The notes under the pieces are model-generated. The model worked only from the letters and a program-made list of their open reading frames with translations, was not told the DNA's origin and did not search any database. From positions 129,892,001 through 129,956,000 of the forward strand of contig NC_086097.1 of NCBI RefSeq assembly GCF_963921235.1: a DNA stretch of 64,000 nucleotides, given 5' to 3'. Both the position numbers and the translations under genes were made by a program. Source of the stretch: Mobula hypostoma (Eukaryota). Of this stretch, positions 791-6,292 are shown in pieces. Each line of letters begins with the position of its first letter. The stretch's first letter is position 1.

Positions 791-888
791 TTTAAAACAG
801 AAGCTATAGAATGCAATAGCAGGGAGGGCAGTAATTAGCTGGCACTGTGTTTGATACAAACTCCACTGACCAGCATCCTTCAACAGGT

Positions 889-1073
889 AGGAGCAGATGG
901 GCAGTGATTTGGCCACCACTGCCGGCCCACCAACTGGAGAGTGTCATGGTTAAGGGTCGAAAACACTCTGTGAAGGTTGGGAGCCACCCGATGACATTTG
1001 CTCCTGGCTGAAGGCTACAGTTACTTTATAAGGTATCTGGAGAATGCACCCTAACAGGTGTATGTAACAAGTA
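889..1073 (+). repeat. Upstream copy of the ~185-bp terminal direct repeat
   Basis: Matches 5744-5927 with about 9 differences counted by eye. Confidence 0.97.
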
Positions 1074-2571: not shown

Positions 2572-2755
2572 GGGGTGTCAGGTAGGGGTAGCACCTCTGG
2601 TGGGGGAACACATTGTGTCCTTTTCAGGGCGCTTTGTCACCTTTGGTCCCCACCTGGCACTCAGCTCTCACCTGTGGCTCCCTGTAGGTGTTTGCATGCG
2701 ACAGCAGCCACACCCTGGGCAACGGCTTTGACAAGCCGGCTAAACCAAGTGAAGG
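2572..2755 (+). ncRNA. HDV-like self-cleaving ribozyme (putative)
   Basis: P1 GGGGUGU 2572-2578/ACACCCU 2710-2716 with G-U at position 1; P3 GGC/GCC; P1.1 CC 2680-2681/GG 2717-2718; P4 CGGCUU/AAGCCG; J4/2 GCUAA with C2740; imperfect P2 2665-2674/2746-2755. Confidence 0.7.
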
Positions 2756-2912
2756 TAGCCGACTGGTCTCAAACTCTCAGTGAGATAGGGAGTTGTCTAT
2801 CCCAGCATGTGAAGACAGACTCCGGCGGATTGAGCGGACGAGACCAATGGTAGGTCCAACGGTCAAGAAGGCAGTCTCCGCAAGCGCCGTGGAACACGTA
2901 GAGCACGACAAG

Positions 2913-3457
2913 ACCATATAACCATATAACAATTACAGCACGGAAACAGGCCATCTCGGCCCTTCTAGTCTGTGCTGAACTCTTACTCTCACCTAGTCCC
3001 ACCGACCTGCACTCAGCCCATAACCCTCCATTCCTTTCCTGTCCATATATCTATCCAAATTAACTTTAAACGACAACATCGAACCTGCCTCAACCACTTC
3101 TGCTGGAAGCTTGTTCCACACAGCTACCACTCTCTGAGTAAAGTTGTTCCCCCTCATGTTACCCCTAAACTTTTGCCCTTTAACTCTCAACTCATGTCCT
3201 CTTGTTTGAATCTCCCCCATTCTCAATAGAAAAAGCCTATCCACGTCAACTCTATCAATCTCCCTCATAATTTTAAACACCCCTATCAAGTCCCCCTCAA
3301 CCTTCTACGCTCCAAAGAATAAAGACCTAACTTGTTCAACCTTTTTCTGTAACTTAGGAGATGAAACCCAGGCAACATTTTAGTAAATCTCCTCTGTACT
3401 CTCTCAATTTTATTGACATCTTTCCTATAATTCGGTGACCAGAACTGTACACAATAC
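2913..3457 (-). mobile_element. CR1 LINE 3' fragment
   Basis: YCVQFWSPNYRKDVNKIERVQRRFTKMLPG...LERRRLRG and TRGHELRV motifs; (TATATGGT)n tail. Confidence 0.9.
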
Positions 3458-3630
3458 ACAAAGGCACAGAAGATGTCCTGGTCATCCACTACGCCTAGTC
3501 TCATCTCCAGCCGTCTCGACTCTTGTCTTGCCACTGGATCCAGATGGGAATTGGGAAGAGAGAGTGAGGCTGACACCGTGCAACTCTCCCTCACTTAAAT
3601 CCAAATCAAGCGTTAGTCTCGGCATCATCA

Positions 3631-3771
3631 GCCGGCTGGTGGCGCAGTGTCAGCAGCGCTGGACTCCAGGAGCGAAGGTTCCCGAGTTCGAATCCAGTCG
3701 AGCTGCTCCCGGGCACACTTTCCATTCTTGCCAAGGTTGAGTGTCGAGCTAGCAACTCGGCATCGTAAAAA
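3631..3771 (+). mobile_element. tRNA-derived SINE (lacks the 3' tail)
   Basis: A box TGGCGCAGTG and B box GAGTTCGAATCC; same head as 34637-34940. Confidence 0.8.
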
Positions 3772-5740
3772 GTACTAATGGCGTCGAGGTCTTCATCAAT
3801 GATGATGGACGAACCTTAATTCCACATGACCTCATCCTGTAAGGACTCGACCACTACTACATCCCAGTGGCTATTCGAGACATGATCACCAGCTACCTAG
3901 GAGGATTCAAACTCAGATTTACATCAGCCCATTTCACAACTAGTTGGCAGGACCTCCAGAAGGGGATTCCAACAGGGTGCGCCATCTCTCCCACCCTATT
4001 TATTATGGGAATGAACCTCCTATTATCAGCAGCAGAAGATGTAACCCGCGGCCCGACGTTGGAGTCGGGCATTGTTCAGCCGACTCTACGAGGGTTCATG
4101 GACGACATCACTATAACAACTCTGGCACATGTCCAAGCAAGATGGGTATTGGAATCCCTGGATGATGTAGCCACTTGGGCGAGGGTGTCCTTCAAGGCCA
4201 AGAAGTCCAGGTGTATGGTGATCAGAAAGGGCAAAGTTACTAGCAAGTTTAGCCTCCAAGTTCAGGGTGAGGTCATCCCTTCCATCAAAGATAACCCGAT
4301 AAAATGCTTGGGGAAGTGGTTAAATGTGTAATTGACAGACGGGGCCAATGTCACCAATACTGTGAAGCAGACAGACGAATGGCTGGAGAAGATCGACAAA
4401 TCCAGACTTCCCAGTAAATTCAAGACCTGACTGTACCAATACAGCATTCTGCCCAGGCTTCTCTGGCTCTTCACACTTTATGAGTTCCCCATGACTGCCG
4501 TACAGGGCATCGAGAGGAAAACCAACAAACACTTGCGGAGATGGTGGGGAGTTCCCCCAAGCTTCTCTTTAGCGGGTGTCTATATTCGAACTGGCAACTG
4601 CAGCTTCCCCTGTCATCTGTTGTGGAGGAATTCAAGGTGGCAAAATGCAGAGCCTTATTACACTTGAGAGATTCCAATGACGTCTTGGTAAAGCAAGCAG
4701 GTGTTACAACCAGATCTGGGTGCAAGTGGGCAGCCAACGCAGCTGTGGAGCAGGCAGTGTGTTCTCTGAAGCTGTGAGATATCATCGGCAACTCCTGCGT
4801 CGAGTGGCAAGGCCTCGGCTCAGTTCACTTCCAGCAGTGGGGAAACGCAAGCATAAGGAACAGGTGAGACATGGTACAGGCAGAAGTACGGATCCGTGAG
4901 GAAGAGAAGTGGATGTCAAAGGCAGTGGAACAAGGGTCCCAGCGTGCCTTGACAAAATGGGATCTGCCCAAGCGCAAGATCTCATAGGCAGAGTTATGGA
5001 GACTGGAGCCCTTCCGTATTTCCTTCCTCTTGCGATCAGTGTATGATACCCTGCCTTCACCATTGCATCTGTACTCATGGGGGATGAGAGCGGACCCGAA
5101 CTGAAAGCTCTGTGGTCAAAAGTGGACACTGGCTCATATACTGTCCAGGTGTAAAACAGCTGTAACTCAAGGACGGTATGGGTGGCTCCTTGATCAGGTG
5201 CTTCTGGCTGTTGCTGACACACTAGAGCGGGAGAGATGCAAGAAGAGGGCGGCTGGCACAGATTTGAGGAAGACCATCACCTTCATCAAGGAGGGAGCCA
5301 GGCTTTTCGTAACCAAACAATCTGCTGCTAACAGCCAGGTCCTGGGAGATGAGGGTCGATGTGGGAAGGAGGCTGCAGTTCCCGGATGTGGTGCACACAA
5401 CCCTACGCCCGGACATTGTACTGTGGTCAACTGAAGACAGGAAAATAATTCTGGTTGAGCTGACTGTGCCATGGGAGGAGGGATGGGAAGAGGCCCACGA
5501 CAGAAAGGCCTTGAAGTACCAGCCCTTACTGCAGGAGTGTAACGAGAAGGGATGGCAGGCATGGTTGTTCCCTGTGGAGATCGGCTGCAGAGGTTCCCCA
5601 GTCAAATCAGCATGGCGGTTGTTGTCAGATCTGGGCCTGGACGAAAGGAGCAAAAAAAGACAAGCAGATCGTAGGATGGGGGAAGAGGCAGAACGGGCCT
5701 CTTGTTGGATTTGGAGTAGGCGAGAGGAGGGAAGCTGGAA

Positions 5741-5862
5741 GCCAGGAGCAGATGGGCAGTGATTTGGCCACCACTGCCGGCCCACCAACTGGAGAGTGTC
5801 GTGGTTAAGGGTCGAAACACTCTGTGAAGGTTGGGAACCACCTGATGACATCTGCTCCTGGC
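5741..5862 (+). ncRNA. Putative non-circularly permuted hammerhead-like ribozyme with kink-turn
   Basis: GAGUGU-C (5794-5800) pairs with GAA-ACACUC (5814-5822); GUGGUU (5801-5806) pairs with AACCAC (5836-5841), directly followed by CUGAUGA (5842-5848); 14-bp closing helix 5741-5754/5849-5862. Confidence 0.7.
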
Positions 5863-5927
5863 TGAAGGCTACGATTACCTTATAAGGTAACTGGAGAATG
5901 CACCCTAACAGGTGTATGTAACAAGTA
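5744..5927 (+). repeat. Downstream copy of the terminal direct repeat (ORF end plus 3' UTR)
   Basis: Matches 889-1073. Confidence 0.97.
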
Positions 5928-6292
5928 TCAAGACAAGAGTAGTGCCTGACAGACCGATGAGGCGACAGGCTGCAGCTAAAGACAATAAAACACAGGAAAT
6001 CAGCACATCAAATCTGCTTCACCCTTCCATCATGGCTGATTTATTATCCCTCTCAACCCCACTCTCCTGCTTTTTTCCCCATAACCCTTGATGCCCTGCG
6101 TAATCAAGAAACTATCAATCTCGGCTTTAAATATACCAAATGGCTTGGCCTCCACAACCGTCTCTGGAAATGAATTTCACAGATTCACCACCCTCTGGCT
6201 AAAGAAATTCCTCCTCATCTCTGTATTAAATGGACGTCTCTCAATGCTGAGGGTGTGCCCTCTAATCCTAGACTTCTCCATTCTAGGAAACA

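What the first reader, a model, noticed from the sequence alone, without database searches (positions are those of the whole stretch)
5741..5862. Non-circularly permuted hammerhead-like RNA with a kink-turn at the element's 3' end
Seen: stem III GAGUGU 5794-5799/ACACUC 5817-5822 with GAAA at 5814-5817 and a GUC site at 5798-5800; stem I GUGGUU 5801-5806/AACCAC 5836-5841 followed by CUGAUGA 5842-5848. GAAA comes before CUGAUGA and both lie 3' of the cleavage site, an order no circular permutation (types I-III) produces. Stem II is replaced by three abutting helices: 14 bp 5741-5754/5849-5862, hairpin 5755-5761/5772-5778 (over the stop codon), and GGCCC 5779-5783/GGGUC 5809-5813. Stem III continues through a Kt-7-like kink-turn (UGU bulge 5823-5825, G-A/A-G/A-G pairs) into CCAACU 5785-5790/GGUUGG 5829-5834. 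Established: natural non-circularly permuted hammerheads have been reported; I cannot check whether this family is among them. Inference: self-cleavage after C5800, possibly modulated by an L7Ae-family k-turn binder.
Basis: partly seen in the sequence, partly recalled or inferred. Interest (0 to 1): 0.92.

Follow-up and report, generated by a model that had tools for sequence, protein, structure and literature searches.

The report
Rewired hammerhead ribozyme in retrotransposon tail
The end of a jumping gene's coding region and the start of its 3' tail fold into a hammerhead self-cutting RNA whose parts are wired in an order not described before, and the same design is kept in relatives from many marine animals.

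Summary
Window 5741-5862 carries every hammerhead core nucleotide in block order S-G-C, the non-circular order of Eckert et al. 2023. In 79 of 80 distant relatives of this retrotransposon, fetched from metagenome contigs, the same RNA follows the ORF on the coding strand.

On 69 aligned sequences (26 clusters at 70% identity) six helices are 92% paired, against 65% in shuffles. Stem I and helix 5779-5783/5809-5813 covary although the search model did not contain them. All 12 core positions are canonical in 57 of 69. H17 is never G and N7 varies freely.

The canonical stem II of type SGC is rejected. The 10.x strand comes from upstream, starting with a conserved G that pairs with C11.1. The backbone break between A9 and G10.1 is bridged by a 14-bp helix and a hairpin, giving a perfect four-way junction. 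A k-turn consensus in stem III leads to a helix that closes a second junction.

Genomic copies whose 5' ends lie at 5799-5803 are over-represented, which suggests cleavage in vivo. Cleavage itself is untested and the biological role is unknown. I found no prior description.

The parts
5741..5754 (+). Helix a, 5' strand. It is the last codons of the ORF and pairs with 5849-5862.
   Evidence: Nine modelled pairs, all with changes on both sides, 86.3% of cells paired. Also recovered by RNAalifold on a MAFFT alignment.
5755..5778 (+). Hairpin arm of the four-way junction (stem 5755-5761/5772-5778). It holds the stop codon TGA 5760-5762 and a palindromic loop UGGCCA 5765-5770.
   Evidence: 6 of 6 modelled pairs covary, 91.8% paired. 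Stops of long ORFs mostly fall at alignment columns 32, 35 or 40, inside this hairpin. Loop palindromes were counted.
5779..5783 (+). Stem II (helix b), 10.x strand supplied from upstream. G5779 takes the place of G10.1.
   Evidence: Pairs with 5809-5813. 90.8% paired, 4 of 5 pairs change on both sides. The first pair is G-C in 49, G.U in 6 and other in 14 of 69. The first letter is G in 62 of 69. This helix was not part of the search model.
5784..5784 (+). Single purine linker between stem II and the NC helix, in the distal three-way junction.
   Evidence: Always one nucleotide: A in 36, G in 29, C in 2 and U in 2 of 69.
5785..5790 (+). NC helix, 5' strand (pairs with 5829-5834). It corresponds to the helix that bridges stems I and II in type SGC.
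   Evidence: 4 of 4 modelled pairs covary, 96.7% paired. 25 distinct strand pairs.
5791..5793 (+). K-turn, non-bulged strand: G5791 (3n), G5792 (2n), A5793 (1n).
   Evidence: G2n in 48 and A1n in 53 of 69.
5794..5799 (+). Stem III, 16.x strand, ending in U16.1 = U5799.
   Evidence: 96.1% paired, 5 of 6 pairs change on both sides. The A15.1-U16.1 pair is U-A in 66 of 69.
5800..5801 (+). Predicted cleavage site: C5800 (H17) | G5801 (1.1).
   Evidence: H17 is U in 26, C in 23, A in 18 and G in 0. 5' ends of truncated copies cluster here and not at six control places.
5801..5806 (+). Stem I, 1.x strand (pseudoknot partner of 5836-5841).
   Evidence: 96.0% paired, 5 of 5 pairs change on both sides. 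Not part of the search model. 33 distinct strand pairs.
5807..5808 (+). AA linker from stem I to the 11.x strand of stem II.
   Evidence: The linker columns are A/U-rich in relatives: A 190, U 119, G 13, C 18. Type SGC has a linker of typically three nucleotides here.
5809..5813 (+). Stem II (helix b), 11.x strand, ending in C11.1 = C5813.
   Evidence: C11.1 is C in 54 of 69.
5814..5817 (+). G12 A13 A14 A15.1.
   Evidence: G12 in 64, A13 in 69, A14 in 68 and A15.1 in 68 of 69.
5817..5822 (+). Stem III, 15.x strand. It is the C helix of the k-turn.
5823..5828 (+). K-turn, bulged strand: bulge U5823 G5824 U5825, then G5826 (1b), A5827 (2b), A5828 (3b).
   Evidence: L3 is U in 51, G1b in 60 and A2b in 60 of 69.
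5829..5834 (+). NC helix, 3' strand.
5836..5841 (+). Stem I, 2.x strand.
5842..5848 (+). C3 U4 G5 A6 U7 G8 A9.
   Evidence: C3 in 69, U4 in 67, G5 in 69, A6 in 69, G8 in 69 and A9 in 68 of 69. N7 is U in 39, C in 16, A in 10 and G in 4.
5849..5862 (+). Helix a, 3' strand. It starts directly after A9, where a canonical hammerhead has G10.1.
   Evidence: The letter after A9 is C in 27, U in 27, A in 7 and G in 6.
5863..5925 (+). Rest of the 3' UTR: a small hairpin (about 5874-5891) and the terminal GUGUAUGUAACAAG 5912-5925. The element ends at about 5925.
   Evidence: Identity among 30 copies is lost after about 5925. A hairpin plus UGUAU motif recurs after helix a in many relatives (rows, read by eye).

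Best explanation
Window 5741-5862 is a hammerhead self-cleaving ribozyme of a new topology. It spans the stop codon and the start of the 3' UTR of a non-LTR retrotransposon with a restriction-enzyme-like endonuclease. The catalytic core is canonical. Stems I and III flank the cleavage site C5800|G5801. Stem II is helix 5779-5783/5809-5813, with G5779-C5813 standing for G10.1-C11.1. The 10.x strand of stem II is not joined to A9. Instead A9 runs into the 14-bp helix a, whose other strand leads through a hairpin into G10.1, so the core, helix a, the hairpin and stem II meet in a four-way junction with no unpaired nucleotides. Stem III continues through a k-turn into the NC helix. The far end of the NC helix joins the far ends of stems I and II in a second, three-way junction. 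Formally this is the type-SGC hammerhead of Eckert et al. 2023, circularly permuted with the break inside their 'block C'. Shown here: the structure, its conservation, and the cluster of 5' ends at the site. Inferred: cleavage after C5800 giving a 5'-OH at G5801, and that the two products stay held together by about 31 base pairs (helices a, b, NC and III). Because the stop codon lies inside the fold, a terminating ribosome should unfold helix a and the hairpin; this too is an inference. The role in the element's life cycle is unknown. My best guess is that the fold is also the handle the reverse transcriptase recognises, and that cleavage takes part of the RNA out of the template pool.
For: The locus fits the published SGC descriptor except G10.1, and there were 0 descriptor matches in 40 Mb of random sequence. 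The scanner hit 37 of 80 metagenome loci on the coding strand and 0 of 80 on the other strand. The covariance model hit 79 of 80 loci, and the eightieth contig ends 13 nt after the ORF. RNAalifold on a plain MAFFT alignment gave compensatory changes in 24 of 25 pairs. On 69 sequences the six helices are 92.1% paired against 64.6% in shuffles (0 of 500 reach it). The covariation score is 0.714 against 0.223, and slid controls give 32-43%. Stem I (96.0%) and helix b (90.8%) were not in the model. All 12 core positions are canonical in 57 of 69, H17 is never G, and N7 is free. The 69 sequences form 26 clusters at 70% identity. For 5' ends, five fetched copies start at G5801 with unrelated upstream DNA; three are unambiguous and two could start at 5799. 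Further candidates lie at 5799, 5802 and 5803, judged from 5 flank letters only. That makes about ten distinct copies within 5799-5803. Six control places gave one true truncation in all.
Against: No cleavage assay was done. A hammerhead with the backbone interrupted between A9 and G10.1 has, as far as I know, never been tested. No Rfam hammerhead model matches, even at E up to 10. Of 30 copies found with 5801-5925, 26 run on gaplessly past 5690 and only one ends near the site, so most new copies come from uncut RNA. Contigs of runs from four other organisms often show A at G12 (302 of 426 depth in X13) and A at G8. Both sit in CpG sites of decaying copies, so this is confounded, but it is not support. 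One lineage of about eight contigs has A at 11.1. Two lineages lack the k-turn consensus. The sequences are related, and the alignment for four helices was fitted by the model. A benefit of cutting the template 125 nt from its 3' end is not obvious.
Confidence: 0.8

Rival explanations
1. The fold is real and derives from a hammerhead, but it no longer cuts. It would serve only as the structured 3' UTR handle that the element's reverse transcriptase binds to start target-primed reverse transcription.
For: It makes up nearly the whole 3' UTR and lies next to the 3' end. Most copies were made from uncut RNA (26 of 30 run through the site). The break between A9 and G10.1 is untested for catalysis. 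R2-type proteins are known to bind structured 3' UTR RNA (PMC10499050 and PMC12222951, seen as search listings and abstract starts only).
Against: Catalytic nucleotides are kept across 26 clusters, G is absent at H17 (0 of 67), and N7 is free; this is the pattern of working hammerheads. 5' ends of truncated copies cluster at the predicted site. The two roles do not exclude each other.
Confidence: 0.13
2. It is an ordinary type-SGC hammerhead in which stem II forms between GGGU 5809-5812 and AUCU 5850-5853, with a tolerated C.C at 10.1/11.1.
For: In this copy four pairs (A-U, U.G, C-G, U.G) can be drawn, so the locus passes the published descriptor apart from G10.1.
Against: Across 69 sequences this helix is 51.1% paired against 49.2% in shuffles. 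The 10.1/11.1 pair forms in 2 of 67. Both strands covary with upstream partners instead.
Confidence: 0.03
3. The hammerhead motifs stand by chance in a structured 3' UTR.
For: The scan covers very many windows, and one descriptor-like match somewhere is conceivable. No Rfam match.
Against: 0 matches in 40 Mb of random sequence. The same motifs and wiring occur in 79 of 80 distant relatives, with covariation.
Confidence: 0.01

Closest known systems
Type-SGC hammerhead ribozymes (HRIMA-1 motif and variants), Eckert, Friedrich, Weinberg and Weinberg, NAR 2023 (PMC10085705; sections 7, 13, 14, 15 and parts of the supplement read)
   Same: Block order is S then G then C. A short linker runs from stem I to the 11.x strand. 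A helix ties the other sides of stems I and II together; here that is the NC helix. The core is identical. Even the local run UUAGGGUCGAAAC recurs in some of their variants.
   Different: Their stem II uses the strand directly after CUGAnGA(G); here that is rejected. The 10.x strand and the following NC strand lie upstream of the S block, so this form is a circular permutation of SGC. The break is inside 'block C', which the authors assumed cannot be interrupted. The break is clamped by helix a and a hairpin in a four-way junction. A k-turn joins stem III to the bridging helix. Their RNAs come from metatranscriptome contigs with hairpin ribozymes. This one sits at the stop codon of an animal retrotransposon.
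Classic hammerheads, types I, II and III
   Same: Same core nucleotides, the same three helices around it, and the same predicted cleavage site after H17.
   Different: The strand order cannot be reached by circular permutation. There are two layers of pseudoknots. Stem II is not closed by a loop or by the ends. No Rfam hammerhead model matches.
Minimal hammerheads of Penelope-like elements (Cervera and de la Pena 2014; Lunse et al. 2017; both known to me from reference lists and recall, not read here)
   Same: A hammerhead carried by an animal retroelement, present in the same genome (earlier notes).
   Different: Those are type I minimal motifs in terminal repeats and act as dimers. They belong to another class of element, have no permutation, and do not overlap an ORF end.
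HDV-like and twister-variant ribozymes at the 5' ends of non-LTR retrotransposons (recalled for R2; PMC8501958 seen as a listing only)
   Same: A self-cleaving RNA built into a non-LTR retrotransposon transcript.
   Different: Those cut at the 5' end to free the element RNA from a co-transcript. This one would cut between the ORF and the 3' UTR, a place for which no role is established.
Kink-turn (Kt-7 type; consensus recalled, not from a call)
   Same: A C helix, a 3-nt bulge, tandem G.A/A.G pairs, a third A.G pair, then an NC helix. In the window these are 5817-5822, 5823-5825, 5826-5828 and 5791-5793.
   Different: It is set inside stem III of a hammerhead. It is not universal in the family: G2n in 48 and A1n in 53 of 69. 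Kinking and protein binding are untested.

Membership tests
Hammerhead ribozyme | Conserved core: C3 U4 G5 A6 N7 G8 A9, G12 A13 A14, A15.1-U16.1, H17 not G | tested here: met
   Present in the window. All 12 positions are canonical in 57 of 69 relatives. H17 is U in 26, C in 23, A in 18 and G in 0. N7 is free.
Hammerhead ribozyme | Stems I and III flank the cleavage site and are supported by covariation | tested here: met
   Stem I is 96.0% paired with 5 of 5 pairs changing on both sides. Stem III is 96.1% paired with 5 of 6.
Hammerhead ribozyme | Stem II starts with G10.1-C11.1 next to A9 and G12 | tested here: inconclusive
   A covarying helix with a conserved first G-C pair abuts G12. Its G is not joined to A9; the letter after A9 varies and pairs elsewhere. 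The feature is met in space as drawn, but not in backbone.
Hammerhead ribozyme | Site-specific self-cleavage after H17, giving a 2',3'-cyclic phosphate and a 5'-OH | not testable with these tools
   Indirect only: 5' ends of truncated genomic copies cluster at 5799-5803, against one true truncation in six control places.
Hammerhead ribozyme | Match to a curated Rfam hammerhead model | tested here: not met
   No match at gathering score in the window. No hammerhead match at E up to 10 in 5600-6000. This is expected for a permuted form.
Type-SGC hammerhead (Eckert 2023) | 5'-to-3' order of blocks is S, G, C | tested here: met
   S is 5794-5806, G is 5809-5822 and C is 5836-5848.
Type-SGC hammerhead (Eckert 2023) | Stem II forms between the strand before CGAAA and the strand directly after CUGAnGA, with G at 10.1 (descriptor in their Supplementary File 1) | tested here: not met
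   10.1 is C5849. Across 69 sequences this helix is 51.1% paired against 49.2% in shuffles, and the first pair forms in 2 of 67.
Type-SGC hammerhead (Eckert 2023) | A helix binds the other sides of stems I and II | tested here: met
   The NC helix 5785-5790/5829-5834 follows the 10.x strand and precedes the 2.x strand, and it covaries (96.7% paired). Its strand order on the sequence is reversed relative to type SGC.
Kink-turn | C helix, 3-nt bulge, tandem sheared G.A/A.G, NC helix | tested here: met
   The sequence pattern is met in the window. In relatives G1b is in 60, A2b in 60, A1n in 53 and G2n in 48 of 69.
Kink-turn | Tight kink in three dimensions; binding of L7Ae/15.5K-type proteins | not testable with these tools
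   No RNA 3D or binding tool was at hand.
HERO clade of non-LTR retrotransposons | Phylogenetic placement of the reverse transcriptase with named HERO references | not tested
   Only the general type is shown. The ORF has RT pieces and a C-terminal domain with invariant PD...E...K residues. Homologues carry Pfam RVT_1 and zf-RVT, and some are auto-named R2.

The most novel reading that the evidence does not exclude
The caged hammerhead could be a switch that is gated by translation and by dimer formation. It overlaps the stop codon, so terminating ribosomes keep it unfolded. Once translation stops it would fold, bind the newly made reverse transcriptase, and cut or re-join its own backbone. 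The palindromic hairpin loop would pair two element RNAs by a kissing contact, so the enzyme can cross the ribozyme nick or switch templates, much as retroviruses use dimeric genomes. If so, one ancient RNA machine would set the split between messenger and template in a whole clade of animal retrotransposons.
Probability: 0.12. Interest if true: 0.95.

Novelty: new variant of a known kind. Interest (0 to 1): 0.88.

Why it matters
It shows that a ribozyme core can survive more than the six block orders considered so far. The conserved CUGAnGA-stem II block itself can be split, with the missing strand brought in from elsewhere through a four-way junction, and a k-turn can solve the resulting problem of connecting the helices.

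Descriptor and model searches built on uninterrupted blocks miss such forms. None of Rfam's models sees this one, although it is present in more than a thousand copies in one vertebrate genome and in relatives that protein names place in teleosts, amphioxus and bivalves.

It is also, by my searches, the first non-circularly permuted hammerhead tied to a defined gene context in animals. That context is the stop codon and 3' UTR of an endonuclease-bearing non-LTR retrotransposon. This opens a testable question: what does a self-cleaving RNA do between the ORF and the template end?

The compact, fully cross-braced fold may also be useful as an engineered RNA device.

Tried and rejected
- **Rfam.** A scan of the whole window and a permissive scan of 5600-6000 gave only a chance snoRNA hit at E 3.7.
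- **Earlier findings.** Look-ups by sequence and by words returned nothing on this element. The genome's other hammerhead notes concern Penelope-like elements.
- **Young copies.** The 60 copies in the same genome (98-100% alike) carry no covariation signal.
- **First pile-up test.** Among 30 copies found with 5801-5925, only L059 ended near the site. The finer pattern test was needed.
- **Public runs.** All 24 runs offered are kept as contigs, so RNA ends cannot be read. The four laid runs gave variants confounded by CpG decay, and no contig ends piled up at the site. Stretches without cover say nothing.
- **Canonical SGC stem II.** Rejected.
- **Chance.** Rejected (and the comparative data).
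- **Technical failures.** A MAFFT run on 1.6-kb flanks timed out. Alignment A2 held one locus on the wrong strand and was replaced by A3.
- **Literature.** Searches for a prior description found only Eckert 2023 for 'type-SGC'. They found nothing for hammerhead + HERO + non-LTR, and nothing fitting. A November 2026 paper's introduction still names only types I-III plus 'additional helices or alternative permutations' (passages).
- **Limits of the literature check.** Subscription journals are not in the library. bioRxiv supplements were not seen.

Full report
**The observation.**
- Stem III is GAGUGU 5794-5799 / ACACUC 5817-5822.
- The site is G5798 U5799 C5800.
- Stem I is GUGGUU 5801-5806 / AACCAC 5836-5841.
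- G12-A15.1 is GAAA 5814-5817, and CUGAUGA is 5842-5848.
- A 14-bp helix joins 5741-5754 to 5849-5862.
- A hairpin 5755-5761/5772-5778 covers the stop codon TGA 5760-5762 of the frame 5313-5762.
- GGCCC 5779-5783 pairs with GGGUC 5809-5813.
- CCAACU 5785-5790 pairs with GGUUGG 5829-5834, beyond an internal loop with GGA on one side and UGUGAA on the other.

The nested helices are the minimum-free-energy fold (-61 kcal/mol, z -3.85). Rfam has nothing here.

**The setting.**
The stretch lies at the end of an ORF whose C-terminal domain has the invariant PD...E...K residues of restriction-enzyme-like endonucleases. Reverse-transcriptase pieces lie upstream.

The element is very abundant and young in this 3.48-Gb genome. 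The first look found 1418 candidates, and the 40 scored were 98-100% identical. The copies end at about 5925, so the 3' UTR is about 163 nt and the finding fills its first 100 nt. An older subfamily exists (89 exact matches to a pattern with A or G at 5800). It has GUA at the site and CUGACGA in the core.

I did not test the label HERO.

**Relation to the published permutations.**
Eckert et al. 2023 divide the hammerhead into blocks S (site), G (GAAA) and C (CUGAnGA). They describe the non-circular order S-G-C (section 13). Their search descriptor (Supplementary File 1) is met by the window in every element except one: the letter after CUGAUGA is C5849, not G.

A scanner written to that descriptor without stem II finds only this locus in the window. 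It finds none in 40 Mb of random sequence.

**Relatives.**
The endonuclease domain has 164 database relatives at E up to 1e-5 among 783 candidates. Where named, they are from teleosts, Branchiostoma and bivalves.

An alignment of 24 of them drew 80 loci from metagenome contigs, 43-81% identical in protein.
- The scanner hit 37 of 80 on the coding strand and 0 of 80 on the other, always just after the ORF.
- RNAalifold on a plain MAFFT alignment of 36 sequences recovered helix a, the hairpin, the NC helix and stem III, with compensatory changes in 24 of 25 pairs.
- A covariance model built from that alignment matched 79 of 80 loci. The last contig stops 13 nt after the ORF.

**Covariation.**
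The counts use the 69 matches with E up to 1e-12. These form 26 clusters at 70% identity, and their median identity to the window copy is 55%.

The six-helix structure is 92.1% paired against 64.6% in shuffles (0 of 500 reach it). The covariation score is 0.714 against 0.223, and slid partners give 32-43%.

| Helix | Cells paired |
|---|---|
| a | 86.3% |
| hairpin | 91.8% |
| b | 90.8% |
| NC | 96.7% |
| III | 96.1% |
| I | 96.0% |

Stem I and helix b cross the other helices and were not in the model, so their support is not produced by the fitting. The four nested helices are fitted, which leans the counts towards them. One search is the unfitted check for those.

**The core.**
All 12 core positions are canonical in 57 of 69 sequences. 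C3, G5, A6, G8 and A13 are invariant. H17 is U in 26, C in 23, A in 18 and never G. N7 takes all four letters. The 12 deviants are mostly single changes, four of them G12 to A at a CpG.

**Stem II.**
The canonical pairing of the strand before GAAA with the strand after A9 fails. It is 51.1% paired against 49.2% in shuffles, and 10.1/11.1 pairs in 2 of 67. Instead:
- The strand before GAAA pairs with the strand that directly follows the hairpin. Its first pair is a conserved G-C (G in 62 of 69, C in 54 of 69).
- The strand after A9 pairs with the last codons of the ORF (helix a).
- The last pair of helix a, the first pair of the hairpin, the first pair of helix b and G12/A9 are adjacent, with no unpaired letters.

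So the core's G.A platform, helix a, the hairpin and helix b form a perfect four-way junction. I read helix b as stem II, with G5779 in the place of G10.1 and a backbone break between A9 and G10.1. This last step is inference from the conserved G-C and the strand polarity.

**The far end.**
Three short links connect the distal ends of the helices.
- The 1.x strand runs through an A/U-rich linker (AA in the window) into the 11.x strand.
- The 10.x strand runs through one purine (65 of 69) into the NC helix.
- The other NC strand runs through one to three letters into the 2.x strand.

Stems I and II therefore span two junctions, and stem III plus the NC helix form the third strut.

The loop between stem III and the NC helix has the k-turn pattern: G1b in 60, A2b in 60, A1n in 53 and G2n in 48 of 69, with the third bulge letter U in 51. 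A sharp kink is what this connection needs; that is my inference.

Two lineages lack the pattern. One has a 7-nt bulge on the other strand, and one has UC in place of GA.

Compared strand by strand, the NC helix matches the helix that ties stems I and II together in type SGC. The whole RNA is then type SGC with its last segment (10.x strand plus bridging strand) moved to the front. That is a circular permutation opened inside block C.

**Signs of cleavage in vivo.**
A first sample did not show a pile-up. Of 30 copies found with 5801-5925, 26 run on gaplessly past 5690, three lose register further upstream, and one ends near 5797-5801.

A finer test used patterns of 22 element letters preceded by five letters that must differ from the element, with up to one mismatch.
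- **Start at G5801:** 10 matches. Five are small internal deletions. The other five, fetched, are true truncated copies with unrelated DNA upstream that run to the element's end. Three are unambiguous, and two could start at 5799.
- **Starts at 5799 and 5802:** five further candidates, two at 5799, two at 5802 and one at about 5803. These were judged from five flank letters only.
- **Six control starts (5781, 5791, 5806, 5811, 5816, 5826):** 13 matches in all. After fetching the four plausible ones, one is a true truncation at the tested place.

That is about ten ends within five positions, against roughly one expected. When the enzyme reaches G5801, all partners of the upstream strands have already been copied, so a structural block to the enzyme is unlikely there. 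A template that ends at G5801 explains the cluster better. The numbers are small.

**Against, and open.**
- Cleavage was not measured.
- The split between A9 and G10.1 is untested.
- Most insertions derive from uncut RNA.
- Contigs from four other organisms carry many copies with A at G12 or G8, though at CpG sites.
- One lineage has A at 11.1.
- After cleavage, the two pieces would stay joined by helices a, b, NC and III. The consequence of a cut is therefore unclear, and re-ligation is conceivable.
- The stop codon lies in the hairpin in most long ORFs, so terminating ribosomes should unfold helix a and the hairpin. Whether this gates the ribozyme is speculation.

**Prior knowledge.**
In the searched library 'type-SGC' occurs only in Eckert 2023. 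No paper joins hammerhead, HERO and non-LTR. Four broader searches gave nothing fitting. Their alignments in the supplement hold no sequence with the window's G-block strings, apart from generic GGGUCGAAAC in canonical SGC variants.

**Verdict.**
This is a real, deeply conserved hammerhead of a new topology in a new context. It is very probably a self-cleaving RNA. Its function is open.

Noticed in passing
window 5765-5770 (loop of hairpin 5755-5778); alignment A5 columns 36-64: The hairpin loop holds a Watson-Crick palindrome of 6 nt or more in 43 of 69 relatives, against about 7.5 expected from shuffled loops. The palindrome changes between lineages (UGAUCA 22, UGGCCA 6, GACGUC 5, UUGGCCAA 4, UGUACA, UCAUGA and others). 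That is the pattern of a kissing-loop site for pairing two RNAs. In some lineages the UGA in it is the stop codon.
   Followed up: partly
window 881-1012: A second, decayed and 5'-truncated copy of the same RNA (88 bits with the model; CCGAUGA in place of CUGAUGA) lies upstream on the same strand.
   Followed up: partly
window 5863-5925; rows: After helix a, many lineages have a small hairpin followed by UGUAU(G/U)A close to the 3' end (window: GUGUAUGUAACAAG 5912-5925). One copy, L007, repeats GTAACAAG. This is likely the terminal recognition or priming motif.
   Followed up: no
L118, L124, L134, L130, L107, L160, L164, L155: A lineage of about eight contigs has A instead of C at 11.1 (GGAUAGAAA) while keeping G at the first place of the upstream strand. 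It may be an inactive branch or a tolerated G.A pair.
   Followed up: no
L128, L129, L133, L154, L166, L117, L153 and L119, L122, L143, L149, L158, L141: Two lineages lack the k-turn pattern. The first has a 7-nt bulge on the opposite strand. The second has UC in place of GA and a short hairpin with a 4-nt loop.
   Followed up: no
own genome: Four copies share an internal deletion that joins CCAAC to TGGTT (about 5790 to 5802), at a CTGG/GTGG microhomology that spans the cleavage site. Whether they are one duplicated event or recurrent is not known.
   Followed up: no
window 2585-3843: The element's reverse-transcriptase region is interrupted. ORF pieces on the minus strand (2993-3594) look like part of another retroelement inserted there.
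   Followed up: no
window 5813-5814, 5846-5847, 5800-5801: Two catalytic Gs (G12, G8) and the cleavage site sit in, or derive from, CpG dinucleotides. The older subfamily has CUGACGA. Dead copies therefore lose the core fast, which explains many 'mutant' cores in genomic copies and in contigs of other organisms.
   Followed up: partly
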